Source of the DNA: a virus
Taxonomy: Duplodnaviria; Caudoviricetes
DNA length: 48,688 bases
IMG/VR virus record: IMGVR_UViG_3300044631_002939
Span: 1 to 48,688 of that record
Reading direction: 5' to 3' (one strand)
Shown: positions 4,486 to 48,073 of the stretch, one piece after another
How positions within the stretch are numbered: position 1 is the stretch's first letter
Layout of the letters: each line of letters opens with the position of its first letter
Translations under genes and position numbers: made by a program
Notes under the pieces: generated by a model
The model's input: only the letters and a program-made list of their open reading frames with translations
The model's database searches: none
Told to the model about the DNA's origin: nothing

Positions 4486-4553
4486 GTGTTGGTGGTGGGG
4501 CCCCTCGGCCCCGGTGCATGAATGGTAACACGCCCGTAACGATCTGGCAAGGG
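4486..4553 (-). promoter_or_regulatory. Repeated early promoter/stem-loop module, copy 1
   Basis: Minus strand: TTGCCA (4550-4545), 17-bp spacer containing CGTTACGGGCGTG, TACCAT (4527-4522), hairpin GGGGCC-GAGG-GGCCCC, ACCACCAACAC leader. Confidence 0.85.
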
Positions 4554-4599
4554 CAACTGCTTGGAATTTCCAGATAGTCGCCCTTGCCCTGCAGGACCA

Positions 4600-4635
4600 C
4601 CAGACCATTTTCCTGGCGCCAGGAAAATGGTCTGG
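4600..4635. repeat. Perfect 36-bp palindrome
   Basis: CCAGACCATTTTCCTGGC|GCCAGGAAAATGGTCTGG, with no loop. Confidence 0.95.
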
Positions 4636-4647
4636 CCCGGCCCCTGG

Positions 4648-4878
4648 CTAGAGCATCAGCAACAGGTCGGCGCTAACCCCCAACACCTGGCAGATGGCCC
4701 GCAGCTGCTCCGGGGCGGCTGCAGCTTGGCCCAGCTCCAGTTTTGCGATCCATGGTTGCTGGCAGCCGATTGCTTCCGCCAGCTGGGCCTGGGTGAGGTT
4801 GCGCTGGTGGCGCAGGTTGCGCATGCGGCCCCCGAGCACTCCGCGCACGTAAAAAGCAGGGGCGATGGCTGATTGCAT
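4648..4878 (-). CDS. XRE/Cro-C1 family helix-turn-helix regulator
   Basis: LGGRMRNLRHQRNLTQAQLAEAIGCQQPWIAKLELG...LRAICQVLGVSADLLL, an HTH_3 pattern. Start is ATG 4878 or a nearby downstream codon. Confidence 0.85.
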   Translation of the reverse strand: MQSAIAPAFYVRGVLGGRMRNLRHQRNLTQAQLAEAIGCQQPWIAKLELGQAAAAPEQLRAICQVLGVSADLLLML

Positions 4879-4941
4879 TCCATGGCGGAATAATTCACCC
4901 CAGGATGGGCGGATTGCCTCAGCCTGGCCACAGAGATCAGC

Positions 4942-6279
4942 GTGCCTGTGGCCTATGAGCTGAGATTTGATCGGGGCGCAATCGGCCCGAACTGGAGCAA
5001 AACTCCAGAGGGCTTTCTGCAGGCCCGCGGCAATTTCTCGCGCACTGGCTGCCAGACCTACCGCCGGCAGGACGGCAGCACGGTGGTTGAGTACCGCCCC
5101 GAAAGCGAGGTTGCGCATCGCGACAGCATCCTTTCGCTGGGAGGGTTGCCGGTCACGCATGAGCATCCGCCCACCCTGTTGACACCGGACAATGCCCGCG
5201 AATATCAGCGGGGCTCCACCGGCACTCACGTCACCTACGACAACGGGTTCACCAGCGGTGTCGTCACGATCACCGATCGGGAGTTGATTGAGGCGGTGGA
5301 GCGGGGCGATGCAACGGAGCTCTCGGTGGGCTACCGGGTGGAAATCGACCGCACCCCTGGCGTCGCCCCAGACGGCACCCGCTACGACGCGGTGCAACGC
5401 CGCATCTCCGGCAACCACTTGGCGGTGACGCGCCGGGGGCGCTCCAACGACGCCGGTGCACCCACCGATGGCCGCCGGGTGGCCCTGCACCTGGATTCGG
5501 CCGATGTCACCGACTGGGCCGAATCGGTGGACTGCCATCAATTTGATTCCCTATCTGCCCCGGAGGGCAACCACATGAGCACTGAATTTTCCAGCCGCAG
5601 CGATGGCTACGGCAAAAAGCCCATGCCACCTGTCATGGAGGAAGAGATGGAGGAGGAGATGGAAGAAGACCCCGATGAGGAGGGGATGGAAGAGGAGGTG
5701 ATGGATCCCCCCGTGGCGCCCAAAAGCCGTACCAGGCGGGCCCCCGGCCGCCGCGACAGCAACGACAGCGTTCCGCGTGCTGAATACGACCGGGTGCGCT
5801 CGACCCTGGCCGCCCGTATCTCCCAGCACGAAGCCGATCTTGGACGCCTCGACGCTCTATCCATCCGCCTGGATGAGCTGGAGGGCGAGATCGCTGATCA
5901 GCCAGGCGAGCGGCTGGATGCCGACCAGTTCAATGCGCTGGTGAGCGAACGGGTGGAGCTGCTGGAGAAGGCCCACGCCATGACGGGCGAGCGGATTGAT
6001 TCCGCCGGTAAAAGCGCCCGTGAAATCCAGCTGGAGGCCCTGAATGCCGTTGGCTACGAAACCGATCGGTTGGATGGCAAATCGGACGAATACGTGGCCG
6101 CCACCTTCGATGCCATGACGGAGCGGGCCGATGGCCAGCCGCTGGACAGCTCCACAGGCCTGGCCCTGCTGTTGGGCAAGGCCCGCCGCTCCGGCGGCAA
6201 CCGCAATGACGGCTTGGCGGCCTACAAGGCGGCCACCGCCGCCGCCTCAACGCAGCCCCTGATGAATCACGTGCCCTGA
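4942..6279 (+). CDS. DUF2213-family prohead protease/scaffold protein
   Basis: TPEGFL, RTG.Q.Y, EYRPESEV, PVTHEHP, ELSVGY, NHLAV motifs. Acidic and coiled C-terminal half. Sits before the decoration and capsid genes. Confidence 0.9.
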   Translation: MPVAYELRFDRGAIGPNWSKTPEGFLQARGNFSRTGCQTYRRQDGSTVVEYRPESEVAHRDSILSLGGLPVTHEHPPTLLTPDNAREYQRGSTGTHVTYDNGFTSGVVTITDRELIEAVERGDATELSVGYRVEIDRTPGVAPDGTRYDAVQRRISGNHLAVTRRGRSNDAGAPTDGRRVALHLDSADVTDWAESVDCHQFDSLSAPEGNHMSTEFSSRSDGYGKKPMPPVMEEEMEEEMEEDPDEEGMEEEVMDPPVAPKSRTRRAPGRRDSNDSVPRAEYDRVRSTLAARISQHEADLGRLDALSIRLDELEGEIADQPGERLDADQFNALVSERVELLEKAHAMTGERIDSAGKSAREIQLEALNAVGYETDRLDGKSDEYVAATFDAMTERADGQPLDSSTGLALLLGKARRSGGNRNDGLAAYKAATAAASTQPLMNHVP

Positions 6280-6333
6280 TCGCTACTTGACGGCTACTTG
6301 ATTGGCCCTTAGCAAACCCACACTGGAGATCGC

Positions 6334-6900
6334 ATGTCCCCTCTTGTTTTTACCACCAACGCATCATCCGTTGATGATGGCGCTCAAATCAGCTACACGG
6401 CCCAGGCCGATCGTGGCTTGCCGGGCCAAATCGCCACCAGCGCCACCACCACCACCCTCACGGGCAACAATGAAACCGGCAGCCGGCTGCTCTACGGCGT
6501 GCCGCTGGCTGCCAATGGATCGGGTCTGCTGCCCAACTCGGTGATTACTCGCACCACGGCAGGGGCCATCCTGGGGATCTCCGCCCGCACTGCCGCATTT
6601 GAGCGCGGTGGCCCCGATTCATCGCCCGCCTATGCCGATGGCATCCCTGATGGCCGGGCCGTGAACATTCTCACCCGTGGCGTGATCTATTTCGATGCGT
6701 GGGAAGCCATCCCCGTGGGCACCACCCTGCGTTATTTCAAATCCGGCACCAATATTGGCCGTTGGGGTGTCACGGCTAGCGCCGGCAACAGCCTGCTGTT
6801 GGCTGCTGGTGGCTGGGCCATCCGCAAAGCCGCCGCCGCTAATGGTGTGGTGATGGTGGAAATCAACACACCCGCAGCGCTCACCTTCACCGCCGACTAA
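6334..6900 (+). CDS. Capsid decoration/cement protein
   Basis: Between protease and capsid genes. GLPGQIA...ILGIS...VNILTRGVIY pattern. Confidence 0.7.
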   Translation: MSPLVFTTNASSVDDGAQISYTAQADRGLPGQIATSATTTTLTGNNETGSRLLYGVPLAANGSGLLPNSVITRTTAGAILGISARTAAFERGGPDSSPAYADGIPDGRAVNILTRGVIYFDAWEAIPVGTTLRYFKSGTNIGRWGVTASAGNSLLLAAGGWAIRKAAAANGVVMVEINTPAALTFTAD

Positions 6901-6945
6901 GAAACCGACTGCATTCCCCATTTATCCAATCGCACTATTTCTCCA

Positions 6946-7887
6946 ATGGGCTACAGCCAAACCCGACAGGATGCCCAGGCCGCGGCCGGCATCTTTCTTG
7001 AAAACGAACTGCGTCAGAATCTCAACCGCTCATTTGAGAAACAGTACCCGGAGTACCATTACGCCCGGATCGTCCCCGTAAGCTTTGAATTGGATCCAGG
7101 CGCCGAAACCTATAAGTATGACCTATTCGACCGCGTAGGCGATTTTGATCTGGTGGCCGATGCTGCCGACGACCTGCCCATGTCTGATGTAAAGCGCGGC
7201 GAGGTTATCAACACTATTCGCCAGTTTGGTGGCGCAACGAAATACACCACCGATGAGGTGCGAAAGGCGCAATTCAGCAAAATACCGCTTCAGCAGCGCC
7301 GCATAGACGCAATGCGCATGGCCTATGAGGAGCGGATGCACCGCACCTGCCTGTTTGGCTATGCCGGCACTGGACTGCGAGGATTTTTCAATCACCCGGC
7401 CGTGGACCGCCTGGTGGTCACGGGCACCGCCACTGACGGTTGGTTTGATGCGCCTAGCATCACACCCGACCAGATGAACTCCCTGCTTTGTGAGGGCATT
7501 ACCTACCAGGGCAGCTTGACCGGAATGGTCGAAACTCCAGATACGCTGCTGCTGCCCTTTAGCGATTGGCGCAGGGTAAGCACCACCCCCAGAAGCAGTA
7601 ACAGTGACACCACTGTGCTGGAGTTTTTCCTCAAAACCAACGGCACGATCAAGAATGTAGAGCCAATCAACGAATTGGATTTGGGTAAGAGCTTTGGTAA
7701 TCTGACGGCCAAGCGGATGATCTACTACAAGCGAGATCCGGCGAAGCTGGAATTTCATATTTCCCTCCCGCTCACGTTGCTGCCGCCCGAGCCCCGAAAT
7801 CTTGCCTTCATCGTGAATGGAGAATCAAAATCTGGTGGCTTTGCTCCCTACTACCCCAAATCGATCACTTACGTCGATAAGGGCTAA
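6946..7887 (+). CDS. Major capsid protein (DUF2184-type, HK97 fold)
   Basis: FLENEL...EKQYPE, GAETYKY, ADDLP, GLRGFFNHP, PDTLLLP, DTTVLEFF, GG..YYP motifs; position in head module. Confidence 0.9.
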   Translation: MGYSQTRQDAQAAAGIFLENELRQNLNRSFEKQYPEYHYARIVPVSFELDPGAETYKYDLFDRVGDFDLVADAADDLPMSDVKRGEVINTIRQFGGATKYTTDEVRKAQFSKIPLQQRRIDAMRMAYEERMHRTCLFGYAGTGLRGFFNHPAVDRLVVTGTATDGWFDAPSITPDQMNSLLCEGITYQGSLTGMVETPDTLLLPFSDWRRVSTTPRSSNSDTTVLEFFLKTNGTIKNVEPINELDLGKSFGNLTAKRMIYYKRDPAKLEFHISLPLTLLPPEPRNLAFIVNGESKSGGFAPYYPKSITYVDKG

Positions 7888-7938
7888 TCGTGCCTGCTCC
7901 CTGACGCGACCGCACCACCACCACTCCAGCAACCGCCC

Positions 7939-8451
7939 ATGGCCTCTGCTACCTTGACCAGCCCAATCACTCCTGCCGCCGCCGTCAAAGCGGCGGCCCC
8001 GCCGGCCGACCAGTCGGCGGCTACCGGCACCCTGGCAATTGCCTACACCCCTGAGGTGATCGATGCCGTTACCGCCAGCGTGCCGCCCGGAGCGTTTGCG
8101 ATCAGCGTTATCAATTCGATCGGCGAATTTGAGCGGCTCAGCCTGGAGCCGGGCCTCAATTTTGGCATTGATGCCGATCTGTGGCAGCGCCTCCAGGAGC
8201 TGCCGGCCGTGCAACAGCTGAACACCCTGCGGGCACTGGAGGTGATCCCGCTGGAGGGCAACGGCGTGGGCGACACCGCCGCCGCTGGCGTGACCGCCCT
8301 GAAGGGGGTGGAGGAGAAACAGGCCCTGCGGCTGGTGCATGTCTGCCGCGATCTGAAACAGCTGCAGACCTGGCAGCCCATAGAAGAGCGCCATGCCGTG
8401 CGCCAGGCGATTCAGCGCAAAATCAACGCCATCAAGGCGGGCCAGGGCTGA
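7939..8451 (+). CDS. Hypothetical virion-associated protein
   Basis: 170-aa ORF after the capsid gene, TGATG-coupled to the next gene. Confidence 0.75.
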   Translation: MASATLTSPITPAAAVKAAAPPADQSAATGTLAIAYTPEVIDAVTASVPPGAFAISVINSIGEFERLSLEPGLNFGIDADLWQRLQELPAVQQLNTLRALEVIPLEGNGVGDTAAAGVTALKGVEEKQALRLVHVCRDLKQLQTWQPIEERHAVRQAIQRKINAIKAGQG

Positions 8452-10022: not shown

Positions 10023-10031
10023 GTATCCACC

Positions 10032-11051: not shown

Positions 11052-11057
11052 TCCTGA

Positions 11058-11318: not shown

Positions 11319-11326
11319 ATGCCTCT

Positions 11327-12315: not shown

Positions 12316-12330
12316 GCCATAGGGCTTGCG

Positions 12331-15300
12331 GTGATGGCAGAAGGGGGTGAGATCAGCCTGGGCTCAGCCGTATTGCGGCTCTACGGCGATCGATCGGCGC
12401 TGGATAAAGAGATTGCTTCCGCAATGCGCGATGCCAAGCGTTTTGCCCAGGAGACGGTCGCCGTAAAGCTTGGCGCAGATACCAGCCAGGCCAGTAACCA
12501 AATTGATGGCCTCAGGCGCCAGGTGGGCAGCCTGCGGGTAGATGTGGACCGGCTGAATGCAGCCATGGGCTCCATGCCCCGGGGCCCGGCGGGCGGTGGC
12601 GCGGGCTGGCAGCAATTTGGCAACACCATGGCGATCGTGGCCGCCAATGCCAGCACCGCCGCCACCGCTGTAATGGCCCTGGCGGCGGCAAACAGATCGC
12701 TGCTGGCAACGCCTGTGGCAGTGCGCGACCTGGGCGCTGGCGGCGGCAGCGGTGGCGGCGGCAGACAGCCTCCTTTGCCGCTGCCGGCGGCTGGAGGAAG
12801 CGGCGGCGGATCTGGCGGCCGCAGCGGCGGGCCGCCTCTGTTGCCGCCGGCTGCCAGCCAAGGCGGCGATGGTGGCGGCGGCCAATGGTTCGCAAGTCTG
12901 CGCCAAGGCGTCGAGCGCTTCATGCCCGCTGCCAGCCAGGCCCTGGGGGTCCTGCAACAGATAGGCGTGGCGGCACTGGGGGCCCAGACCATTTTTTACG
13001 GGCTAGGAATGGCCATCAATGCCGTAATTGGCCCCATGGAGGCCCTGGCCGGCGCTGCCGGCAAATTCAACGAACAGGTAGCAGAGGCCAGTATTTTCAC
13101 CGCGCAATCGTTTGCAGTGATTGGCCCCGATGGGCAGGTAATAGAAGGCACCGCCAATCAAATGCGAGCTCTGCGGGGTCGGGTGGTCAAAGAATTCAAG
13201 GCGATCCAAAAGGAAGTTGCTGTAATCAGCGGCGCCACATCATCGCAAATCTACGAAGCATTTAACATTATCCTGCAAAACAACTCAGGATTGGGCGCTG
13301 CTGGCGAAAATATTTCTAATATCACGAAACTGAGTACACGCATTGCTGCGGCAATGAATACGCTAAACCTCCCCGGCCAGCAACTGCGAACGGAGGTGGG
13401 GAGTTTGCTGTCTGGTGACATCCAGATGTATGACCAGCTAGCACAAAAGCTCTACGGCAAAGGCGCTGGCGAACAGGTGCGGCGGCTGCAGGCAGAAGGT
13501 AAATACTACGATGACTTGATGCAAAAGCTAGAGAAACTATACGACGGCCAAAAGGTATTGGCCCTGTCGATGACCAATGTTAAAAGCAATTTTGCGGATG
13601 TATTTGAATCAATCAGCACCGGCGGCGGCCAGGCCCTGGAGCGAGGCCTGGCTCGCATGCTGCAAACCATCCTGACGCCGCTCAATGCTCTGAAAGGCAC
13701 CTTCATGGGCATGCTGCGGGGCTTGGGGGAGTTACTGGAGCCGATATTTGGCCACCTGGGGCAGGTGGGATCGGCAGCTATTTCCGTACTGTCAATTTTC
13801 TCGTCTTTGCTGCAGATAATTTTTGACTTTGGGGCGTTGTTTAACAATGCCTTTGGGTCGGCAGTCATGCCCGCCATGCAACATCTTGCGTCAGTGCTTA
13901 CCTTCGTGGCCAAGAGTTTACAGCTGATAGCCAGCCTGGTTTCGGCAGTGCTGCGGCCCATCAGCACATTCTACCGAATTATAAGTTTGCAGGGCCAATC
14001 CCAAGCCGGCTCAAGCTTTGACAATATAAACAAAACACTAGACTCTTTGATCGCCAACTGCGAAAAGCTGTCGATCACCATCGCAAAGCCTTTCGTTGAA
14101 GCGGCCAAGGCCGCCGCCTGGCTGGATGGCAAGGCCAGGGGCCTCACCGACACGGAGATACTCAACAAGCAAAAAGATGTTCAGGCAGAATTTGATAAAT
14201 CGATTGGCGATCAGAGTGATGTCACACTGCGCAGCATTGCTCCGAGCCCATTGGCGCGTCAGATGGATCAGGAGCTGGCCAAGCGCTATGAAGGCCTAAT
14301 TCCAGAAGAAAAGCGATTCAAAATATCTAAAGAAATTGCAGAGCTGAAGGAAAAGCAGTACAAAAATGAGATCACGGCATTGGAGCAGGGGCTCAAGCTG
14401 CTCAATGCTCAAAAATCTGTGCAGCAGGCCCTGAATGAACTGGCCGAAGGACGCCGGGGGCTGGAGCGCAAGCGGGCCGATTTCAACGTTTCACTGGCTT
14501 CTTCTCCTGAGGCCAAGCAGCTGGCGGACGATAGGCGAAATGAGCTCGCTGGCCGCCAAGAACAGCAGCGCATCAACGAACGGCGAGAAGCATTGCAAAG
14601 CGAGCGCAGCATTCAGCAGCAGCAGCTACAGATCAGCATCCGCCAGGCAGCCATCCAGCAGGAGCAGCTTAAAATTCAAGTCGCCCAATTGTTGGTAGAA
14701 AAACAGAAAAATGATTTGGTATATACACAATATTATCTTAAAGCTCGCAATTTTGCGGCAGGTAGTGTGGAGCGGCAGGCGGCGGACAAGGTTGTTAAGC
14801 AGTATCAGGATGTTGGCCAAATCATTGGCCGGCAGGTGGCCGCGGCACAAAGAGCGGTGGGCCTGGCCTTTGAAAATGAAGGCCAACTACGCCAAATCAA
14901 CGGCCTGGAGCAGCAGCGGCTCAATATTCAGCAGCAGGGCCTGGACATCCAAAGCCAGTCGGCCCAGCTGACGCTGGAGCAACAGCGCCAGCTCAGCGTG
15001 CTCAACCAGAAGGAGCAGGCGATCAAAAATGAGCAGGAGGCTCAGGCCCAGCAGCAGAAAGCGATAGCGGACAACCAAACCCGAACGGTGGAACAGCAGC
15101 AGCTGGCGCTCGAGAACATGAGCAAATTGGCCGAGGTGGAAAACCGCCGGGCTCAATTGAGCAAGGCGGTTGCCGATGCCAACGTGAAAGCCGCCGAGCG
15201 GCTGGTGGGATTGGCGGAGGCCCAAGCCAATGCTCAGCGCAATCCCCGCAGCGTGGAGGCGGTGATCGGTGCCCAGATAGAAGCCCTGGCACTGGGGCGC

Positions 15301-31995: not shown

Positions 31996-31996
31996 C

Positions 31997-36284: not shown

Positions 36285-36338
36285 GAGCCGGTATGGTGGG
36301 GGGGGGGGAGCGAACCCCTACCTTATCACGGATTCAGG

Positions 36339-36770: not shown

Positions 36771-36782
36771 GTTGGCCGGTGC

Positions 36783-37865: not shown

Positions 37866-37958
37866 GACCTTACACCGCAGTCATTCTATGGCATTTTTTG
37901 CTCCGTGCCACATTCGGGTGCCCATTCTTGATGCCGCCACTGCCAGGAGGGCATCCTG

Positions 37959-39224
37959 ATGCCTGAACCACAGGGCCGTACCCCGTTTGCGGTGGTGCCA
38001 ATTGAGCTGCTGGAGGCCAGCGCCGAATCCAAGGGCAGGCTGCTGGCCTACTGCTGGCTTTGGCACTACGCCGGACCGGAAGACAGGGCCGATCCGTCTC
38101 TGGCCACCTTGTCAAGGAAATGTCGGATGCAGCGCACTGCCCTATCAGAGGAGCTGGCATGGCTGGAAGCCGAGGGCTGGATTTCAGGGGAGCGCCGTCC
38201 GCATCAGTCGAACGTGTACCGAGTGCGTCACCAGCCAAGGCTGTCCAAATCTGGCACTGGGGGTAGTGCCAAATCCGGCACTGGGGGTAGTGCCAAATCT
38301 GGCACTGGGGGTAGTGCCAAATCTGGCACTGGGGGTAGTGCCAAATCTGGCACTGGGGGTAGTGCCAAATCTGGCACTGGGGTAGTGCCAGATTTGGCAC
38401 ACAAACAAGAAGCTTTAACAAGAAAAGAAGAAATCCAAGAGAAAGACCCCCTTACCCCCATTGATCCGGCGGAGCCGTTGGCAACGGTTGGACCCGATCC
38501 GAAGCCAGCGCCAACAGCCCCAAAGCCGCCAGCAGCGCCAGAGCCCGCCGCAATGCAGCCAACGGCCATCGCCCAGCCCCTGGAACCGCCGGCTGCGGCC
38601 ATCGAGCCCCAGGCGCTTGCAGCGCCATGCCCAAACCCATTGGCGCCCATTGCTGCCCCAATGGCGCTGAGCAGCCCCCTGGCGGGGCCCCAGGAGGCCG
38701 CCGGACCCATCGCCGGGCACATGGAGCCGGCAGCCCCCTGCAGCCCCCCTGCAGCCGCCAAGCCGACCCGCAAAGGCCGCAAGCCAGCCGGGCCGGTGCC
38801 GCTGCCCCCCGATGCTCCGCCGCTGGAGCCAGCTGAGCTGGAGGTGCTCACGGCCTGGTGGCAGCTGCGCTGCGAAAAACACCCCAGGGCCAATTGCACC
38901 AAATTGGGCGCCGGCAACTTGGCGGCCATCGCCGCCGCCGCAGATCGGGGCGTGCTGCGGGCCTACCTGCACAAGGGCGAGATGGCCGGTTGGCAATCCC
39001 TTGACCACGCCGGCAGAGCTGAGGCAATCGAGCGCCTGGCCGCGGCTCACCAGCTGGCCACCAACCCCCGAGCCGATTTTCCCGGTGGGGGCCTTCATCC
39101 CGAAAACAGGATGTATGATTCGCGCAGACCGAACCCCGGTCAACCCAGCCGCCGCCAGCAAACCATGGCTCGGCTCAACAACCTGTTCAAACCCGAGGAT
39201 GGAGGCCCCGATGATCACCCATGA
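37959..39224 (+). CDS. Replication initiator (N-terminal winged HTH, lambda O-like layout)
   Basis: PFAVVP..LL, LLAYCWL, PSLATLSRKC....LAWLEAEGWI....SNVYRV. Internal iterons, A-rich tract, Pro/Ala linker. Confidence 0.8.
   Translation: MPEPQGRTPFAVVPIELLEASAESKGRLLAYCWLWHYAGPEDRADPSLATLSRKCRMQRTALSEELAWLEAEGWISGERRPHQSNVYRVRHQPRLSKSGTGGSAKSGTGGSAKSGTGGSAKSGTGGSAKSGTGGSAKSGTGVVPDLAHKQEALTRKEEIQEKDPLTPIDPAEPLATVGPDPKPAPTAPKPPAAPEPAAMQPTAIAQPLEPPAAAIEPQALAAPCPNPLAPIAAPMALSSPLAGPQEAAGPIAGHMEPAAPCSPPAAAKPTRKGRKPAGPVPLPPDAPPLEPAELEVLTAWWQLRCEKHPRANCTKLGAGNLAAIAAAADRGVLRAYLHKGEMAGWQSLDHAGRAEAIERLAAAHQLATNPRADFPGGGLHPENRMYDSRRPNPGQPSRRQQTMARLNNLFKPEDGGPDDHP
38245..38400 (+). repeat. Iteron array/putative replication origin: six ~24-bp tandem repeats plus one inverted copy
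   Basis: Unit CCAAATCTGGCACTGGGGGTAGTG containing dyad GTGCCA-N4-TGGCAC. Followed by an A-rich tract at 38401-38447. Confidence 0.85.
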
Positions 39225-40992: not shown

Positions 40993-42282
40993 TACAAAAT
41001 GCAAAAACACTGGGCGCAGCAGTTCATCAGTGGCGTGGCTTAGCGCGTCTGGGGAGCGGAACAGGTTTTCGTAAAGGCCAGGCCAGGCTTCCGCTGGCAA
41101 CGCCTGCATCGTGATGATTTGATCTCGGAGACGAACGATTGAGGTTCCTAGCCCCGTCACCCCCTGGTCCTGCAGCTGCTCCAATTGCGCCAACTGCTCG
41201 CGGTAAGTCAGCAGCTCAGGGCAACCCACTTCTGGTGGTTCGGCTCCCTCAAGCGCCAACCGGGCCATGCGCCGCGCAGCACGGCGCACCAACACATCAA
41301 TTACTGCCGATCGCAGCGTGTCTTCTCGAACCCCCTTCCCCACGTAACAGCAACCGGGGCGTTTGCAGGCATATCGCGCCACGCCGGGGCCGTGAACATT
41401 TGGTTTTTGATGCCATTGCAAATTTTTACCGCACCCCTCGCAACGAATCAGGCCGCTAAATAAATGCCTAACGCTGGCGGCTCGTTGCATTGGGCCCTGG
41501 CTGCGGGTTTCCAGTTGGCGTTTGATCAGCGTCCATTCAGCCGGTGAGATCAGCGGAGTGGTGCGACCCCATTCAATTTCTGTGTAGTCCTGCGTGCCGC
41601 TGGGGGCCCCCCGGCCCAGTCCGCCGCGCAAAATCGGATTGTGCAGCCAACCGGTTAAACCGTGAGATGAGTATTGCCTCGGGAAATCAGCAGGCAGGGC
41701 CTTCAGTGTTGCGTAGATATTGCATTCGTGCTGAATGATCAATTCAACCAACTGCCTGGCTGCAGTCCAGGTAACAGGTGATGGCACAACCTGCCCGTCA
41801 ACGTGGGCATAGCCAAACGGCACAGGCCCCCTGCCTGCATAACCTGCCTCCCGCCGCCGCCGGATGCCATCGCGCACCTTGATGCTGATCATGCGGGAGG
41901 TCACGCGATTCATCACGCTCATCACCCCGGTAAGAGCGAGCCCACTCACCGTTTGGTTCTCCAGCACCATCCCCTGCAGATCAGCGACCGTGCAGCCGGC
42001 GCAATGGCATTCCTCTAGAAAATCCTGATCAGATCCGTCTCGTGCCAATCGCGACAGGTCTACCACCAGTACCTTGGCCACCAGCCCCTTGGCCACCAGG
42101 GCCCTTAATTCTTCCCACCCCGGCCGCCGCTGGCCTGAGTAAGCGCTCCCGCGTTCCACGATCACGCGATCGCAGCCAGCCTGCTGCATGTCCCATTGCT
42201 GCCCCTCTACGGAGGTGTCTTGCGCCTCCTTGCCGGTGCTAACGCGCACATACCCAACGATTAGCCGGCCTACACGGTCCAT
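40927..42282 (-). CDS. Large serine recombinase (integrase)
   Basis: GYVRVST (catalytic Ser), RPG, DLSRLARD, PFGY, LHNPILRG, zinc ribbon LFSGLIRCEGCG...YACKRPGC, coiled coil. Confidence 0.92.
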   Translation of the reverse strand: MDRVGRLIVGYVRVSTGKEAQDTSVEGQQWDMQQAGCDRVIVERGSAYSGQRRPGWEELRALVAKGLVAKVLVVDLSRLARDGSDQDFLEECHCAGCTVADLQGMVLENQTVSGLALTGVMSVMNRVTSRMISIKVRDGIRRRREAGYAGRGPVPFGYAHVDGQVVPSPVTWTAARQLVELIIQHECNIYATLKALPADFPRQYSSHGLTGWLHNPILRGGLGRGAPSGTQDYTEIEWGRTTPLISPAEWTLIKRQLETRSQGPMQRAASVRHLFSGLIRCEGCGKNLQWHQKPNVHGPGVARYACKRPGCCYVGKGVREDTLRSAVIDVLVRRAARRMARLALEGAEPPEVGCPELLTYREQLAQLEQLQDQGVTGLGTSIVRLRDQIITMQALPAEAWPGLYENLFRSPDALSHATDELLRPVFLHFVSEILYQGGPNSFKIKLRSRLS

Positions 42283-42289
42283 TGGTGCC

Positions 42290-42337
42290 TGGGTCGAAAA
42301 CGGCAGTCAAGCAATCTTGAGGTGCGTTTTCGACCCA
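42290..42337. other. Putative attP site
   Basis: 48-bp dyad: TGGGTCGAAAACG/CGTTTTCGACCCA outer arms and TCAAG/CTTGA inner arms, centred on AA (42313-42314), 7 bp from the integrase start. Confidence 0.75.
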
Positions 42338-42344
42338 ACCCCAA

Positions 42345-43085
42345 ATGCCTCCCAAGCGCCCATCTTCCGCCGCATTGACGGCGGAAATCGTGCCCACAGC
42401 CCCCGCCCAGGGCGGCCCAGACTCCAGCCCCAGGGCGGCTTTACTGCCGATCAGCAAGCTGATACCAGATCGAAAAAATGCCCGCCGGCGCACGCCCCGT
42501 TCTCGCGACATGTTGGCCCGCTCGATGGAGGAGTTTGGCGCTGCCCGCTCGATCGTGGTGGATGAAAACGGCCGGGTGGTGGCCGGCAACGGCACGGCGG
42601 AAGCGGCCATAAATGCAGGCATAGACAGGGTTTTGTTCATCCCCAGCGATGGGAACACCCTGATTGCCGTCCAACGGTTCGATCTGAGTGAAACCGAAAA
42701 AACCAGCCTGGCCCTGGCCGACAACCGCACCAGCGACACATCTGAATTTGACGGGGCGATGCTTGCCCAGCTGGTGGAGGAGGATGCCCAGCTGGACGTC
42801 TCCCCCTGGTTTTCCGAGGAGGAATTTGCCGCGCTGGTGGCCGGTGACCAGGTGGATGAGGATGAGACGGAGCCGCCGCCCCCCCCCAGCAAGCCCAATT
42901 CAGGGCTTGAGATCAAGCTGCAGTTCGCAACCCAGGCGGAGTTCGATCGGTTTGGCTCCCTGCTGGTGCAGCTTGCCGCCGCCCTGCCCGAGCCGGCGGA
43001 GCTGACCGGCCGGCTGGCACTGGTGATCGAGGCCTACCTCGACCGTGGAGAACGCCAGCGCCAGCGCCGGCAGCCCAGGGCATAG
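42345..43085 (+). CDS. ParB/Srx N-terminal-domain protein
   Basis: ISKLIPDRKNARR, SMEEFG....IVVDENGRVVAGNG..EAA, LALADNRTS. Confidence 0.8.
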   Translation: MPPKRPSSAALTAEIVPTAPAQGGPDSSPRAALLPISKLIPDRKNARRRTPRSRDMLARSMEEFGAARSIVVDENGRVVAGNGTAEAAINAGIDRVLFIPSDGNTLIAVQRFDLSETEKTSLALADNRTSDTSEFDGAMLAQLVEEDAQLDVSPWFSEEEFAALVAGDQVDEDETEPPPPPSKPNSGLEIKLQFATQAEFDRFGSLLVQLAAALPEPAELTGRLALVIEAYLDRGERQRQRRQPRA

Positions 43086-43096
43086 GCCGCAGCCAG

Positions 43097-43207
43097 CGGA
43101 GGCGGTGGGGGCGGTGGCCGCGGCGACCCCGCCCTTGCCAGATCGTTACGGGCGTGCTACTATTTGTTCACCGGGGCCGAGGGGCCCCACCACCAACACC
43201 AGCCATG
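43097..43207 (+). promoter_or_regulatory. Repeated early promoter/stem-loop module, copy 2
   Basis: TTGCCA (43135-40), 17 bp, TACTAT (43158-63) with TGn extension, hairpin 43173-88, CCAGCCATG. Near-direct repeat of 43431..43546. Confidence 0.88.
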
Positions 43208-43387
43208 AACTCTTACGTCGTCTCCGTCGCCGGTCCCACACCTACCTGGATCCGCTGGAACTCAGACACCAATTTGCCGTGTTTCACATTCAACCTTCCA
43301 GAAGGTGTCAGCCTCCCTGATGCCAAGGCCCTTAAGGCTCGCGCTGACATCTGCTGCGGCGGCACTCTGAGCGTTGTTGAAGCCTGA
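43205..43387 (+). CDS. Hypothetical early protein (60 aa)
   Basis: ATG directly after module copy 2 (MNSYVVSVAGP...). Confidence 0.7.
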   Translation: MNSYVVSVAGPTPTWIRWNSDTNLPCFTFNLPEGVSLPDAKALKARADICCGGTLSVVEA

Positions 43388-43430
43388 CGGCATCCGCGCA
43401 CTCTTCTTTGTCGTCACCCACCCACGCCAT

Positions 43431-43546
43431 CGGAGGCGGTGGGGGGCGGTGGCCGCGGCGCCCCTTTGCCCTTGTCAGACCGTTACGGGCGTGCTACTAT
43501 TTGTTCACCGGGGCCGAGGGGCCCCACCACCCAACTGCCAGCCATG
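43431..43546 (+). promoter_or_regulatory. Repeated early promoter/stem-loop module, copy 3
   Basis: TTGTCA (43472-77), 17 bp, TACTAT (43495-500), the same hairpin, CCAGCCATG. Confidence 0.88.
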
Positions 43547-43945
43547 ACCAACTACCTCCTTTCCACCACCGTTGTCCCTAATGGAGGAGACGGGATTTGG
43601 GAAATCCAAACGACCACCGCCTCGGCGGTCAAAGTAAACCTTACCCAGAACTGGGTCTCGGCCGTAGGCCATGAAAGTACAGCCACAATTATGAGCGAGG
43701 TGCTAAATATCGGGATCCCCGTAAACCGAGTACCCATCGCCCCACGGCCAGGCGATAAACTGTTTTGCTTCAAGCTTAAGGGGCGTGCGCCAGAAGGCGT
43801 TGTTCTCGACCTGGAAGAGATTGAAAAGATGGGGTACGAGTGGCTGGTAATGACTTACCACGGCACGTTAGGCGCCGCACTAGACGCACACCATCGATAT
43901 ATGGCGGATTACATAATGGCCGTCCGCTGTCATCCTGGCTTTTAA
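43544..43945 (+). CDS. acrIII-1: DUF1874 (STIV B116/YddF) family anti-CRISPR ring nuclease AcrIII-1
   Basis: SAVGHESTA, VNR, GDKL..FKLKGR.PEG.VL.LEEIE..GY match the conserved GH, NR and R..EG motifs of DUF1874. Confidence 0.88.
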   Translation: MTNYLLSTTVVPNGGDGIWEIQTTTASAVKVNLTQNWVSAVGHESTATIMSEVLNIGIPVNRVPIAPRPGDKLFCFKLKGRAPEGVVLDLEEIEKMGYEWLVMTYHGTLGAALDAHHRYMADYIMAVRCHPGF

Positions 43946-43963
43946 TTTTTTTCTCGGTTACTG

Positions 43964-44221
43964 GTGACCACTGACCCCACGGCCGCGGCCAGGATGCAGC
44001 GGTGGCGCGATCGTCAGAAGGGGCTGGGGCCGTTGCGGGATCGGCCCACCTGCCAGAGCTGCGGGAAGCGGCACACCGGCGCCAAAGGCCCTTTCTGCCG
44101 CCTTTGTTGGCAAAGCCAAACCACAGAAGGCCGGGCGGAGCGAGCCGCCAGAGTCGCCAAGGCCAAGGCCAAGGCCAAGGCCAAGGCCGATGCCACTCAG
44201 AACCCCTGCATCCGCCGCTGA
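43964..44221 (+). CDS. Small basic zinc-finger protein
   Basis: GTG start. DPTAAARMQRWRDR, CQSC...CRLC and a (KA)n tail encoded by AAGGCC repeats. Confidence 0.7.
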   Translation: MTTDPTAAARMQRWRDRQKGLGPLRDRPTCQSCGKRHTGAKGPFCRLCWQSQTTEGRAERAARVAKAKAKAKAKADATQNPCIRR

Positions 44222-44280
44222 CCCTATTTGTAATCATTGCCAGATTACCAGATTGTTAACCCTCACTTTTTGTTTTTACA

Positions 44281-44934
44281 ATGACTAAACCCGTCTGGTT
44301 CACAAAGTTAGAACGTGACCTGAACGCTCCAGTTATCATGGCGCCGGATGGTGCGGCAATCGACTGGGATCGGTGTCGAGATCTATTTCTGGTTCCACTG
44401 CTCCAGCGTCTGGAGAAGCGCTCCAACAGCCCGCACCCTGCCATCGTGCGGGGACTGCTGCAGCGGCGCCTCGCGGGGGAGGATGTGACGGCTGAGCTGT
44501 CAGCCGCCAACGCCGACGCCAACGCCGCCGCCGCCGCCGCCGACGACGCCGACGCCACCACCTGGGCCAACTATGCCGCCACCTGGGCCAACTGTGCCGC
44601 CAACCTGGCCGCCGCCGCCGTTGACGCCGCCAACTGGGCCGCCAACTGGGCCGCCGACGCCGACGCCGATGCCGAACGCGCCGACCAGGTGGCTGACCTG
44701 CAAGCCGCCGTGGCCGCGTCTAGCCGGCAGCCAGCGCTGCCGGCTAGATGCGGCCACATCACAGGTCTTGACCGCGAACTGCAGGCAGTTTTCTATACGG
44801 CCTGCAACAGCGAGGGGGGTTCCGCTGACGAGATCTATCTCAGGGGGATCCACGCAGTAATCGCGCAAGCTGCCGGTGGAGTGAAGGCCAAGGCCAAGGC
44901 AACAGCCTCTGACAAGCCGCAAACTGGGGCATAG
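44281..44934 (+). CDS. Hypothetical Ala-rich repeat protein
   Basis: 217-aa ORF with AANW/AAD low-complexity repeats. Confidence 0.7.
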   Translation: MTKPVWFTKLERDLNAPVIMAPDGAAIDWDRCRDLFLVPLLQRLEKRSNSPHPAIVRGLLQRRLAGEDVTAELSAANADANAAAAAADDADATTWANYAATWANCAANLAAAAVDAANWAANWAADADADAERADQVADLQAAVAASSRQPALPARCGHITGLDRELQAVFYTACNSEGGSADEIYLRGIHAVIAQAAGGVKAKAKATASDKPQTGA

Positions 44935-44945
44935 CGGCTAAAACC

Positions 44946-45155
44946 ATGCCCACAGCTGGCAGCAACGGCACACCAGCGGAAGCCCAGGGCCAGGCCGCAC
45001 CCCCCGCGATCGACTGGGCCAACGTGGCCAGTGAGGTGAGGATCATGCGCCAGCTAAATAAGCGCCCTGGCCAGCACCGCCAGGGCCCAAAAAGCCAAGT
45101 CCCCACCACCAGCCACCAGCTGAACATCACCGGTAGCCGCCCCATGCAGCCGTGA
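44946..45155 (+). CDS. Hypothetical protein
   Basis: 69-aa ORF in operon orientation. Confidence 0.45.
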   Translation: MPTAGSNGTPAEAQGQAAPPAIDWANVASEVRIMRQLNKRPGQHRQGPKSQVPTTSHQLNITGSRPMQP

Positions 45156-45208
45156 CGCATTGGCGCATTGATGCCGTGTTGCCTACCCTGGTGAATCGCC
45201 ATTGATTC

Positions 45209-45661
45209 GTGAGCAGACTCCCTGCGCCAAAACCTGCGGGGGGTGACGGCTCAAAGAAATCAGGCAAAAAAAACCAGCCAACAAAGTTAGAAAAAATATT
45301 CAGAATACGGGAGCTGCAGACACTCTGCAGAAATGGCTACAGCCCGCTGGAATTGCGTAATCATTGCGAAAAGAAGTGGGCAATGCCGCGCCGCACTGCT
45401 AGTAAATATATCAAGGAGATGTATGAATCCCTTGAAGAAGCGCTTACCTGCATCGACAAGCGGCGCATAGCGCTGATTGTGTATTACCGCTTGGAAAATA
45501 GCTATAAAGTTGCCAGGGCGGCGAATAATCCCAGCGCCATGATTCAAGCCTGTGTGGCGCAGGCAAACCTGTTTGTGGAGCGGGCCCCGGATGACGCTGT
45601 TGCGGCCAACCAGCAGAGCCGAGAGGCAGCTGTTATCGACCCGGATGAGGATTTTGATTAG
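45209..45661 (+). CDS. Putative terminase small subunit
   Basis: HTH-like basic N-terminus and acidic C-terminus; ends 2 nt before the large terminase. Confidence 0.65.
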   Translation: MSRLPAPKPAGGDGSKKSGKKNQPTKLEKIFRIRELQTLCRNGYSPLELRNHCEKKWAMPRRTASKYIKEMYESLEEALTCIDKRRIALIVYYRLENSYKVARAANNPSAMIQACVAQANLFVERAPDDAVAANQQSREAAVIDPDEDFD

Positions 45662-45663
45662 CG

Positions 45664-47127
45664 ATGGTATCGCTAATTGTCCGACCGCCCAGTATCGTTG
45701 ATTGGTATTCACCGGATCCGCTGATTGGTGGCCCGGCCAAGGCCAACCCATGGGATTCGCTGCCTGGGAAGTGGCCAGATTTTGCGGCGCAAACCCAGAT
45801 TGCCTCTGGCGGCAAGTACATCCCTTTTATACCGTTTGCTGCTCAGCGGGAGCTGATAAAAATACATCGCAAGGTGCAAAATGTTTACGTTTTGAAGAGC
45901 CGGCAGACAGGGATCTCCGAGACAGTGATCAGCTACAAGTTGTGTCAAGCCTGCCGCCGGCCGGCCTGGACTGGGGTGGTGTTCAGCAAGACCGGCGATG
46001 ACGCCAGCGAGCTGGCGGGCCGCATCAAGGGGCAGGCGGCTTCACTTCGCGATCGGTGCCCGAAGTTTGCCAAGGAATCAGCCAGGAAGCTCGTCTTTGC
46101 CGGCTTTGGCGCGTTGCATTTTTTGCCGCCCACCGAGCGAGCCGCCAGGGGAATCCCGTCTGCCGCCTCAATCCTGTTTGACGAAGCGGCCTTTATCACC
46201 AAATTGTCCGGCATTGAGCAGGGCGCATTGCCATCCACGTCGATGCTGGGCGACATGGCCCGCCATCTATGGATTACCACGCCAAATGGCCGCAGCGGCA
46301 CCTTCTCAGACCATTGGCACGAAGACCACGGTGAGGTGGTGGTGGATCCCACGCCCATGGGGGTTAATGGCATCCCTAGGCTGCGCATCTCTCCCGACAA
46401 TCAATACGCCAAAGTTTGCATTCATTATTCCCAGCACCCAGTATATAGTCAGGATCCAGATTTTGCAGCAAAAACAAAGCGAGCCCGCCAATTAACTGAG
46501 CAAAAATATCGCAGTGAATACGAACTCGACTTCACCGCATCTGACTACGAAATATACGCTCACGATCTGATCGAGCTGGCGGAGGCTGCAGGGGGCTGGG
46601 ATGCACCTACCTGGGGCCATAACTATGTGCTCGGCATTGATCCAAACGGCGGCGGCAACGATGCCTTCTGCGGTCTGGTGCTTGATGTATCCGAGAGCCC
46701 CTGGCGGGTGGTGGCCGGGTTCAACGAAGCCGGCTGCAGCCGGGATTACGGACTGCAGCGCTGCGCCAGGCTAATTGATGAATATCAGCCCACTCTGGTG
46801 GTGGTGGAAAAAAACGGGGTTGGGGCAGCAGTTGGGGAGGCTCTGTGTCTGCTGCGGCCAGGCACCGAACTGGAAGAGGTTTACACATCCGGCCCCAGCA
46901 AAATCATGATGAGCGATCGGCTGGTGCTGCTGCTAGAGCAGGGCGAGCTCACGATTCCCCCCAACAGCTACGTGGGCCAGCAGATGCGCAATTTTCGCCA
47001 AACAGAAACGGGCGACCGCAAAGCCGCCCCAGGTCACCACGATGACGCGGTAATGGCCCTGGCCATGGCCGGGCATGCCGGCGCCAGGATACGGCCGCTA
47101 ATGAACAGCTGGATTACAATGATTTAG
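45664..47127 (+). CDS. terL: Terminase large subunit
   Basis: Walker A LKSRQTGIS, Walker B ILFDEAAF, TTPNG, nuclease motifs GIDP, VEKNGVG, HDDAVMALA. Confidence 0.93.
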   Translation: MVSLIVRPPSIVDWYSPDPLIGGPAKANPWDSLPGKWPDFAAQTQIASGGKYIPFIPFAAQRELIKIHRKVQNVYVLKSRQTGISETVISYKLCQACRRPAWTGVVFSKTGDDASELAGRIKGQAASLRDRCPKFAKESARKLVFAGFGALHFLPPTERAARGIPSAASILFDEAAFITKLSGIEQGALPSTSMLGDMARHLWITTPNGRSGTFSDHWHEDHGEVVVDPTPMGVNGIPRLRISPDNQYAKVCIHYSQHPVYSQDPDFAAKTKRARQLTEQKYRSEYELDFTASDYEIYAHDLIELAEAAGGWDAPTWGHNYVLGIDPNGGGNDAFCGLVLDVSESPWRVVAGFNEAGCSRDYGLQRCARLIDEYQPTLVVVEKNGVGAAVGEALCLLRPGTELEEVYTSGPSKIMMSDRLVLLLEQGELTIPPNSYVGQQMRNFRQTETGDRKAAPGHHDDAVMALAMAGHAGARIRPLMNSWITMI

Positions 47128-47429
47128 CTGTTGTGGGATTCACGGTAGCGGCGATGACAGCCTCTGGATCTGAAAACCCAAATAGCGGCAAAAAATAAAA
47201 CGGCTGATTGTTTGCACGCATAAAAACGGCGCCTTGAATCTCAAGGGAAGCCCCGGCCGCTGCCCCGGCCGCTTCCCAGGCCGCTTCCCCGGCCGCTTCC
47301 CAGGCCGCTGGCGTCATGCGATCCAGATGTCGCCAAAAGGCCAGAACTATCCAGCCAGCGAGCGGCGAGGCTGAAGCCTCCAATGCCGCTGAAGGTGTCA
47401 ATCATGCGGAGGGGCACAGCTGAAGCCAT
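47114..47429 (-). pseudogene. Chimeric relic: N-terminus of a C5 cytosine methyltransferase joined out of frame to the C-terminus of an AAWEAA-repeat protein
   Basis: LRMIDTFSGIGGFSLAARW (motif I FxGxGG) breaks off after ~26 aa. Another frame reads VLAFWRHLD...AAWEAA...EIQGA...FYFLPLFGF. Confidence 0.65.
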
Positions 47430-47443
47430 TGATCTGTGGTGTT

Positions 47444-47466
47444 GGGGCCCCTGAATCAGGGGCCCC
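47444..47466. other. GC-rich intergenic inverted repeat
   Basis: GGGGCCCCTGA-A-TCAGGGGCCCC between two minus-strand genes. Confidence 0.8.
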
Positions 47467-47473
47467 TTCGGGA

Positions 47474-48013
47474 TCAGGCCGCCATGCCCTGGGGGTACGG
47501 GCGGCGGCGCACCAGGTCGGCCACGGCGTCGTCATCCCAGCCATCGGCCTGGAGCCAGCCGGCCAGTGAGACACGGCGGCGGGGGGCAGGGGCCAACACC
47601 GGCAGATGGGGGGCTGCTGGGGCTGTGGGCGCCACTGGTGCGGTTGGCTGCTGTTCGGCTGGCTGTTCGGCTGGCTGCTCAGCCCTTGGCACATCAGCAT
47701 CCTGCTGGTGCCGGGTGGGATCGGCCAGATCCCCGGCGATGGCGGCCATCCAGTTGTTGACGGCCTCCACCGCCAGGCGGGTGGCGCGGCCTGCCTGCCA
47801 TGTGCCCAGCACGAGGGCACCGGCGAGCTCGACGGCCAGCCAGATGGCGGCGATCACCGGCAGGGTGCGCTCGGCCGCGGCCTTCAGGTGCTGGCCCCAA
47901 TCGGCGCGGGCAACCGTTTGCAGGTGAGGGGCAGAAGCCCTGGCCGCTGTCTCGACAGAGACCGCAGCGGCTTCAATTGTGGCGAGGAAACTTGTGGCGA
48001 GGGAACTGGTCAT
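47474..48013 (-). CDS. Hypothetical early protein with a hydrophobic segment
   Basis: 179 aa; ATG follows module copy 4. LPVIAAIWLAVELAGALVLG segment and AEQP repeats. Confidence 0.7.
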   Translation of the reverse strand: MTSSLATSFLATIEAAAVSVETAARASAPHLQTVARADWGQHLKAAAERTLPVIAAIWLAVELAGALVLGTWQAGRATRLAVEAVNNWMAAIAGDLADPTRHQQDADVPRAEQPAEQPAEQQPTAPVAPTAPAAPHLPVLAPAPRRRVSLAGWLQADGWDDDAVADLVRRRPYPQGMAA

Positions 48014-48020
48014 TTCTTTT

Positions 48021-48073
48021 GTTGGTGGTGGGGCTCCTCAGCCCCGGTGAATAAATGGTAACACGCCCGTAAC
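48021..48073 (-). promoter_or_regulatory. Repeated early promoter/stem-loop module, copy 4
   Basis: CGTTACGGGCGTG-T-TACCAT (extended -10; -35 degenerate), hairpin GGGGCT-GAGG-AGCCCC, ACCACCAAC. Confidence 0.82.

What the first reader, a model, noticed from the sequence alone, without database searches (positions are those of the whole stretch)
4486..48073. Four dispersed promoter-operator-stem-loop modules define a modular early regulon that includes an anti-CRISPR
Seen: copies at 4486-4553(-), 43097-43207(+), 43431-43546(+) and 48021-48073(-). All share an invariant CGTTACGGGCGTG, an extended -10 (TGn-TAC[C/T]AT), a 6-bp hairpin with GAGG loop and a CA-rich leader before ATG; three have TTG(C/T)CA 17 bp upstream. 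Copy 4 has a compensatory pair change (GGGGCT/AGCCCC versus GGGGCC/GGCCCC), supporting RNA structure. Each heads an unrelated small gene, and copies 2 and 3 bracket one gene as direct repeats. Known: T4-type PeSL elements shuffle early genes, and acr genes use strong early promoters with operators. Inference: a plug-in anti-defence expression cassette system whose module could serve as bait for new anti-defence genes.
Basis: partly seen in the sequence, partly recalled or inferred. Interest (0 to 1): 0.82.

Follow-up and report, generated by a model that had tools for sequence, protein, structure and literature searches.

The report
Zinc-finger Aca-like regulon in cyanophages
A lake virus, likely of small cyanobacteria, puts the same promoter-and-hairpin cassette in front of four small genes, one of them an anti-CRISPR-family gene, and a tiny zinc-finger protein that travels with this cassette in dozens of related viruses likely switches these genes off, which would be a new type of anti-CRISPR regulator.

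Summary
The four copies are real (51-nt core, 46-51 of 51 identical). Each is a sigma70-type promoter with a CGT-N-ACG box in its spacer, a predicted start at a C|A step, a covarying 5' hairpin and a C/A-rich leader. The gene behind copy 3 is an AcrIII-1-family ring nuclease with the catalytic His. Only the copy 2/3 slot swaps genes among relatives; copy 4 keeps its gene. Homologues in 31 non-redundant viral loci sit among the same cassettes: 33 on their strand nearby, none opposite, 32 with the box. Best reading, inferred: an autoregulated Aca-like repressor of an early accessory regulon. All Aca families in the papers read are HTH or RHH, and a 2026 paper asks whether zinc fingers can do this. 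Binding, start sites and timing are untested; few payloads have known anti-defence families; excision was not seen. The scan noted similar cassette classes on other DNA, but no look-alike of this module or protein.

The parts
4481..4550 (-). Module copy 1: -35 4550-4545, box CGTTACG 4541-4535, -10 4527-4522, predicted start 4515, hairpin 4512-4497, C/A leader
4157..4480 (-). 107-aa gene behind copy 1; family of unknown function (53 clusters); a homologue in L182 also follows a promoter with a CGTAACG box
3604..4086 (-). 160-aa gene of unknown function, likely second gene of the copy 1 transcript
   Evidence: co-transcription inferred
4648..4881 (-). XRE-type HTH gene upstream of copy 1, divergent from the head protease; rival regulator candidate
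43092..43204 (+). Module copy 2 with GC-rich 5' flank: -35 43135-43140, box 43144-43150, -10 43158-43163, predicted start 43170, hairpin 43173-43188
43205..43387 (+). 60-aa gene between the direct repeats; no family; a homologue lies in the zinc-finger island of L188
43426..43543 (+). Module copy 3: -35 43472-43477, box 43481-43487, -10 43495-43500, predicted start 43507, hairpin 43510-43525
43544..43945 (+). AcrIII-1 / DUF1874-family ring nuclease gene, 133 aa; His43, Arg62, Arg81 align to positions 47, 66, 85 of PDB 2x4i
43964..44221 (+). Basic-helix, four-cysteine zinc-finger gene, 85 aa from GTG (75 aa from the next ATG); candidate Aca-like repressor; similarity to relatives resumes at its start
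48014..48074 (-). Module copy 4, no -35: box 48074-48068, -10 48060-48055, predicted start 48048, hairpin 48045-48030
47474..48013 (-). 179-aa gene behind copy 4, kept in both relatives (91% and 73% identity)
47253..47441 (-). Remnant of a C5 DNA methyltransferase gene (about 30 codons match); full-length in relative L018 behind the copy 4 orthologue

Best explanation
The four repeats are copies of one promoter cassette of a likely temperate picocyanobacterial phage, and the small zinc-finger protein encoded behind acrIII-1 likely binds the CGT-N-ACG box in the promoter spacer to repress its own operon and the other copies, as Aca proteins do. Shown: the cassette anatomy, the AcrIII-1-family gene, the variable gene slot between cassette and zinc-finger gene, and the tight co-occurrence of cassette, box and zinc-finger gene across phages. 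Inferred: host RNA polymerase starts at the A seven bases behind the -10 as soon as the DNA enters; payload proteins and the zinc-finger protein are made in a burst; the protein then builds up and occupies the box (about -26 to -20), shutting all copies. The 5' hairpin likely stabilises the message or is a second binding site, and the unstructured C/A leader likely serves translation without a Shine-Dalgarno sequence. New genes likely enter by recombination with the cassette as the 5' arm and the zinc-finger gene as the 3' arm; copy 3 likely arose that way.
For: Promoter: A at +7 behind the -10 in 43 of 47 modules, preceded by C in 39 of 47, neither required by the pattern. Hairpin: 4 of 6 pairs change on both sides, 97% of cells paired in 28 selected modules. 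Slot: similarity to L017 and L018 stops at 43198 and resumes at 43965 and 43971, at the zinc-finger start, with three unrelated payload sets. Co-occurrence: operator-free scan of 31 non-redundant zinc-finger loci gave 33 sites on the gene's strand within -2.0/+1.2 kb (94 kb), 0 opposite, 9 in the other 312 kb; 32 of 33 carry the box against 0 of 5 in 35 AcrIII-1 control loci. With looser scans 29 of 31 loci have a module. G005, found by DNA architecture alone, holds a divergent zinc-finger-HTH fusion (E 2e-20) beside cassettes with another spacer motif. S-CBS4 has one cassette without the box and no zinc-finger match. Copies within a phage share the central base of the box in 28 of 35 pairs against 38% of 868 pairs between phages. 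The protein is basic (21 K+R, 6 D+E) with four invariant cysteines and two predicted helices.
Against: No binding, start-site or timing data. The -35 is weak in much of the family (TTG in 11 of 62 modules), which also fits an activator. The residue-to-base pattern is not significant once relatedness is considered: one independent pair on supported branches, and 3 of 12 Ala/Ser proteins go with A rather than C. All 30 between-phage pairs with near-identical hairpins also share the central base, so descent explains part of the uniformity. Six of the 34 loci come from records first found through the motif, so they are not independent. L170 and L183 have the gene but no module was found. Known anti-defence families are scarce: 0 of 51 first genes, and one Lar and one methyltransferase among 126 other nearby ORFs. 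AcrIII-1 did not act as an Acr from its native late promoter in SIRV2, and few freshwater picocyanobacteria have CRISPR.
Confidence: 0.55

Rival explanations
1. The zinc-finger protein binds the same box but activates, as P2 Ogr-type zinc fingers do (recalled), making these delayed-early promoters.
For: Only 11 of 62 modules start their -35 with TTG and copy 4 has none; the same co-occurrence data fit.
Against: Copies 1-3 have a near-consensus -35 at the optimal 17 bp; the gene is last in a box-bearing operon, the Aca position; no Ogr family match in 11 members at E up to 1.
Confidence: 0.15
2. The cassette is simply a strong promoter read by host polymerase, or one under a host factor, spread by duplication; the zinc-finger gene is a conserved passenger of the same islands.
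For: The promoter-hairpin-leader architecture also occurs without the box or a nearby zinc-finger gene (S-CBS4 and several one search hits); descent confounds the uniformity test; the covariation is not significant on the tree.
Against: 32 of 33 cassettes near the gene carry the box against 0 of 5 in controls; hairpins, -35 and payloads vary within a phage while the box mostly does not; phages with divergent homologues have different spacer motifs; no picocyanobacterial genome was among the 3 genome-collection matches, none of which has the hairpin (one strict pattern only).
Confidence: 0.15
3. The zinc-finger protein acts mainly on the RNA hairpin, like Mu Com or the RNA-binding mode of Aca1 and Aca2; this can coexist with DNA binding.
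For: A structured leader follows nearly every promoter; Com is a small phage zinc finger that binds a hairpin in an anti-restriction mRNA (abstract); Aca1 and Aca2 bind 5' UTR hairpins.
Against: Stem and loop sequences vary widely within one phage while the DNA box is steadier; the hairpin also occurs where the protein was not found (S-CBS4); no Com family match.
Confidence: 0.1
4. The XRE-HTH protein at 4648-4881, or a prophage immunity repressor, binds the box.
For: It lies directly upstream of copy 1 and of the equivalent promoter in G009/G010.
Against: The same gene position exists in S-CBS4 without a cassette behind it; no homologue was reported in the partial records G002-G005, G007, G008 that carry cassettes.
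Confidence: 0.05

Closest known systems
acr-aca operons (Aca1-Aca14; PMC13551039)
   Same: Small regulator gene directly behind an acr gene; symmetric box in the promoter; further boxes before other operons; hairpin in the 5' UTR; methyltransferase among co-regulated genes.
   Different: The candidate is a basic-helix zinc finger, not HTH or RHH; copies lie up to 39 kb away; binding and repression are untested; only one acr payload was seen.
PeSL cassettes of T4-type phages (PMC2839356, PMC4122927)
   Same: Repeated sigma70-like promoter plus GC stem-loop before small variable genes; direct repeats around one gene; gene exchange that ends at the cassette.
   Different: PeSL stem-loops are reported terminators at varied positions, mostly upstream of the start, with an AT-rich upstream region and a Shine-Dalgarno; here the hairpin is at a fixed place behind the predicted start, the flank is GC-rich, there is no SD, there are four copies rather than about 50, and a box and candidate regulator are added.
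Conserved early regulatory sequences of archaeal viruses, Aca8 and SMV2 gp37 (PMC11065993)
   Same: A shared promoter motif before small unrelated genes, usable as bait for anti-defence genes; virus-specific motifs with virus-specific predicted repressors, one a predicted leucine zipper.
   Different: Archaeal TATA/BRE promoters; no zinc finger mentioned (0 occurrences); acrIII-1 there mostly lacks the early motif (prevalence 0.13).
Reg576 establishment regulon of plasmid p576 (PMC6294495)
   Same: Four promoters before establishment genes under one self-regulating repressor, giving a burst after entry.
   Different: Conjugative plasmid, RHH repressor, paired heptamer operators; shown by experiment.
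AcrIII-1 ring nuclease (10.1101/778746)
   Same: Pfam PF08960 match; GH motif and the two arginines named for cA4 binding are in register.
   Different: C-terminal extension of about 30 aa; Thr/Ala in place of some cA4-contact residues not checked one by one; activity untested.

Membership tests
Aca regulators | Encoded directly behind an acr gene in one operon | tested here: met
   Starts 18 nt after the acrIII-1 stop, same strand; no terminator-like site listed there; co-transcription inferred
Aca regulators | HTH (or RHH) DNA-binding domain | tested here: not met
   No HTH or RHH family in 11 members at E up to 1; four invariant Cys; model is helix, zinc knuckle, helix
Aca regulators | Symmetric binding site in the operon promoter | tested here: met
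   CGT-N-ACG in the spacer; in 32 of 33 nearby cassettes; some subgroups are not symmetric (CGTCAG)
Aca regulators | Binds the site and represses | not testable with these tools
   Needs EMSA and reporter assays
Aca regulators | Associated with several distinct acr genes | tested here: inconclusive
   One AcrIII-1; 51 other first genes have no anti-defence match in Pfam or PHROGs; no dedicated Acr library was available
PeSL | Repeated sigma70-like promoter with stem-loop before variable small genes | tested here: met
PeSL | Stem-loop acts as terminator of upstream transcription | tested here: inconclusive
   No U-tract; not listed by the terminator scan; lies behind the predicted start; function not assayed
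PeSL | AT-rich region upstream of -35 and Shine-Dalgarno at the 3' end | tested here: not met
   GC-rich flank and C/A leader in the sequence
PeSL | Mini-circles from exchange between neighbouring copies | tested here: inconclusive
   No joint in 8 runs of contigs, which cannot resolve a crossover in the 51-nt identical core
AcrIII-1 / DUF1874 | Family profile match | tested here: met
   PF08960 80.2 bits, cut-off 26; PDB 2j6b E 4e-17
AcrIII-1 / DUF1874 | Catalytic His47 and cA4-binding Arg66, Arg85 | tested here: met
   His43, Arg62, Arg81 align without gaps at +4 to 2x4i; residues named; that 2x4i is SIRV1 gp29 is recalled
AcrIII-1 / DUF1874 | Degrades cA4 and protects the phage in its host | not testable with these tools
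   Needs assay
Ogr/Delta and Mu Com zinc fingers | Sequence family match | tested here: not met
   Neither family listed for 11 members at E up to 1
Known Rfam RNA motif | Match at the gathering score | tested here: not met
   0 matches in the window; only sub-threshold unrelated hits

The most novel reading that the evidence does not exclude
This is the first zinc-finger family of Aca-type regulators: two basic helices clamp a 7-bp pseudo-palindrome, one helix residue (Gln, Ala/Ser, Met) reads the central base (A, C, T) and gives each phage its own operator, and the islands it marks are a large untapped set of anti-defence genes of picocyanobacterial phages (44 clusters among 55 first genes here).
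Probability: 0.3. Interest if true: 0.88.

Novelty: new variant of a known kind. Interest (0 to 1): 0.72.

Why it matters
[quoted passage not shown] This locus offers a 75-85-aa candidate in the Aca position, a 7-bp target and natural protein-box variants, so the question can be tested with a gel shift and a reporter. The protein and the cassette also give a marker for small accessory genes of freshwater picocyanobacterial phages, almost all without a known family, and an acrIII-1 that here sits behind its own promoter, unlike the late SIRV2 copy.

Tried and rejected
Terminator reading of the hairpin: no U-tract on either strand. Direct-repeat reading (GTTAC-N6-GYTAC): lost in the CGTAACG and CGTCACG variants. 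Rfam: nothing. The module in GenBank phages: only chance hits. Exact 20-mer scan: 1 real relative and 4 coding look-alikes. Metagenome and genome collections: 3 matches each, none with the hairpin. A promoter-plus-box scan gave 52 loci, most without hairpin and near my rough chance estimate; only those with a hairpin were followed. Does acrIII-1 travel with the cassette? Not seen by eye upstream of 35 viral homologues, and 0 of 5 architecture hits there carry the box. Excision of 43092-43425: no joint in 8 runs; in X1 the unit's contig depth (529.7) equals the downstream contig's (526.6; upstream 449.6), but X1 may be the source sample and contigs cannot show a crossover in the identical core; inconclusive. 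No RNA holder listed. Fold searches of the zinc-finger model: no match at E 0.001 in PDB or BFVD, best Z 2.8; this does not show a new fold. ESM Atlas: unnamed viral clusters only; nothing for the 107-aa protein. Tree test of the residue-base pattern: not significant. No prediction of self-association was obtained. Papers: no paper held at least 5 of 6 terms in two cyanophage-regulator searches; the one supplement file held for PMC13551039 has no 'zinc' or cyanobacterial term, but other supplements were not visible.
Full report
Setting. The window is a whole linear virus record, estimated 69% complete. It has head, tail, lysis, replication and terminase genes and a serine recombinase. The best capsid match is Synechococcus phage S-CBS4 at 47%, the best terminase matches are cyanophages, runs that hold it are lake and freshwater metagenomes, and a homologue of the regulator described below is on record in Candidatus Regnicoccus frigidus, Synechococcaceae. 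A temperate phage of picocyanobacteria is the likely source; the host is inferred.

Observation. The 13-mer occurs four times at the stated places. The 51-nt cores are 46-51 of 51 identical. Copies 1-3 have a -35 at 17 bp, copy 4 none. A scan using only a -10, a GC hairpin, a C/A leader and an ATG found these four sites alone, against 0-4 hits in 30 shuffles. No Rfam family matches.

Payloads in the window. Copy 3 heads a PF08960 protein (80 bits, cut-off 26). It aligns to solved AcrIII-1-family structures, with His43, Arg62 and Arg81 opposite positions 47, 66 and 85, the residues named as catalytic and cA4-binding in 10.1101/778746 (passages). The genes behind copies 1, 2 and 4 have no family. 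Copy 4 is followed further on by a methyltransferase remnant that is full-length in relative L018.

Relatives. Two close phages, L017 (G001) and L018 (G011), keep the module behind the ParB-like gene but carry unrelated genes there. Similarity ends at 43198, the start of the leader, and resumes at 43965 or 43971. A third study's run holds the L017 type of payload (X11). Copy 3 with its flank is 94% identical over 110 nt to the post-ParB module of L017, which fits arrival of a cassette-plus-gene unit by a single crossover; this is inference. Copy 4 keeps its 179-aa gene in both relatives, so only one slot is shown to be variable. The three copies seen in G011 and G006, records of one metagenome that cover different parts of the genome, share a spacer variant that differs from all four window copies, a hint of homogenisation within a phage.

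The missed part. Comparing all ORFs of the records that carry the spacer box, one small protein was shared by the window, G001, G011, G002-G004, G007 and G008: 43964-44221, beginning where similarity resumes. It has an Arg-rich N-terminal helix, four invariant cysteines and an Arg/Lys-rich C-terminal helix. The AlphaFold2 model (mean pLDDT 84.8, pTM 0.54) shows helices 7-18, 46-52 and 54-74. The window member scores below the curated cut-off of its best Pfam match, a zinc ribbon; PHROGs gives only weak unknown families; a homologue found no match in 50,697 GenBank phages; fold searches gave nothing clear. A profile finds 154 representative clusters at E 0.001, 64 at 1e-10; the tail includes long multi-finger proteins that are probably unrelated.

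Co-occurrence. A protein-based search gave 34 viral loci; three near-duplicates (L158, L165, L187) were dropped. With a pattern that ignores the spacer, 33 promoter-hairpin-leader sites lie on the gene's strand within -2.0 to +1.2 kb (94 kb), none on the other strand, and 9 in the remaining 312 kb; 22 of 31 loci have at least one. Of the 33, 32 carry the box in register; of 5 such sites in 35 AcrIII-1 control loci (210 kb), none does. Looser scans find modules in 29 of 31 loci, not in L170 and L183. Five of the 31 come from records first found through the motif or as close relatives; of the other 26, 24 have modules. The patterns were shaped on these loci, so the strand, distance and control contrasts carry the weight, not the raw counts. 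In the other direction, G005, found by architecture alone, holds a divergent homologue fused to an HTH-like end next to cassettes with a different spacer motif; G009/G010, found through the head protease, have a divergent homologue and a GTTAGCA motif; S-CBS4 has one cassette without box and no homologue. Other architecture hits (L027, L032, L037, L043, L044) showed no homologue in the 5-6 kb fetched, so the promoter-hairpin design is wider than this regulon.

Anatomy across the family. In 47 in-register modules the box reads C44 G47 T46 [A27/C12/T8] A47 C45 G42 (several of these positions were required by the pattern); the base seven behind the -10 is A in 43 and the one before it C in 39, the usual bacterial start context (established knowledge); T of the extended -10 is present in 10. 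Only 11 of 62 modules begin the -35 with TTG. In 28 of the 62, chosen for stems of similar length, 97% of cells pair and 4 of 6 pairs change on both sides; 0 of 500 shuffles reach the covariation score, but 122 of 500 reach the number of such pairs, and the selection favours the structure. The hairpin usually starts three bases behind the predicted start. A 5' stem-loop can stabilise mRNA, but B. subtilis RppH accepts two or three unpaired bases (PMC3997798, passages), so that role is not assured.

Does the box track the protein? At one helix position, Gln goes with central A in 12 of 13 loci (one mixed), Ala or Ser with C in 9 of 12, Met with T in 3 of 3 (one clade), Arg or Lys with A in 2 of 2; labels were read by eye. 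On a tree of the rest of the protein both states recur in two subclades, but support is poor and only one independent pair rests on supported branches, so the test is not significant. Within a phage 28 of 35 module pairs share the central base, against 38% of 868 pairs between phages (0 of 10,000 permutations); with unlike hairpins 14 of 21 against 259 of 727. But all 30 between-phage pairs with near-identical hairpins also agree, so descent contributes (offset-register loci such as L169, L172, L173, L175 were not captured).

Are the genes anti-defence? The 55 first genes are small (median 71 aa) and fall into 44 clusters, some shared between phages. Of 51 from relatives one passes a Pfam cut-off (DnaJ) and none is a known anti-defence family. 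Of 126 further ORFs (123 from the first 150 of 256 listed, plus 3), one is a Lar restriction-alleviation protein beside the L174 island and one the L018 methyltransferase. AcrIII-1 failed as an Acr from its native late promoter in SIRV2 (10.1101/2023.01.10.523387, abstract), and only a few freshwater picocyanobacteria carry CRISPR, one a putative type III (PMC9361551, passage). The anti-defence label is therefore plausible but thinly supported.

Mechanism. Most likely (0.55): host polymerase fires the cassettes on entry, and the zinc-finger protein, made last from the copy 2/3 transcript, binds the spacer box and shuts all four. Rivals: activator (0.15), promoter only with a passenger gene (0.15), mainly RNA-binding (0.10), the HTH protein (0.05). 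Every regulatory step is inferred.

Comparison. It works like acr-aca operons, including multi-operon control and 5' UTR hairpins (PMC13551039: abstract, passages, sections 22 and 25), like the Reg576 regulon (PMC6294495, abstract) and like archaeal early-gene motifs (PMC11065993, abstract and passages). It is not a member of a described Aca family by domain. It resembles PeSLs in layout but lacks their AT-rich flank and Shine-Dalgarno (PMC2839356, abstract and section 13; PMC4122927, first third). Mu Com was seen as an abstract (PMC6483171); Ogr is recalled. The 2026 paper names zinc fingers as an open possibility. Searches showed no report of such a regulator in cyanophages; subscription papers and most supplements were not visible.

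Verdict. Observation confirmed, interpretation partly supported and extended. New variant of a known kind; interest 0.72.

Noticed in passing
window 42280-42347: Imperfect inverted repeat with 32-nt arms between the serine recombinase start and the ParB-like gene; looks like an intact attP; also present in L018.
   Followed up: no
window 38221-38406: About six tandem 24-bp units inside the replication initiator gene, likely iterons of a lambda-type origin.
   Followed up: no
window 88-2858: An LPD1 polyvalent-type protein and an ADP-ribosyltransferase-domain protein just upstream of the head genes, possibly injected anti-defence proteins.
   Followed up: no
window 4601-4638: Perfect inverted repeat with about 16-nt arms between the HTH gene and copy 1, no U-tract; a related stretch lies at 12981-13009.
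   Followed up: no
L054 (G005) 1-3468, minus strand: Zinc-finger-HTH fusion followed by at least four tandem paralogues of a gene that looks like an FGE-sulfatase domain (label recalled, not scanned), most behind their own cassette; such genes are common targets of diversity-generating retroelements.
   Followed up: partly
L020 9200-9720 (G009/G010): Related phages use a TAGCA-N3-TGCTA palindrome overlapping the -10, three copies in G009, with a different hairpin stem.
   Followed up: partly
L119 32636-32720 (S-CBS4): One promoter-hairpin cassette without the box; its gene resembles by eye payloads in L157 and L175.
   Followed up: partly
L018 about 2880-2900; L109, L108, L125, L188: A second recurring hairpin-plus-C/A-leader motif sits between genes inside the islands and also matches window 4121-4151 between the two copy 1 genes; possibly a processing or translation signal.
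   Followed up: no
L017 about 5670-6290 and L018 8117-8920: A sigma-factor-like gene lies upstream of copy 4 in relatives; its 3' end is at the right edge of the window (by eye).
   Followed up: no
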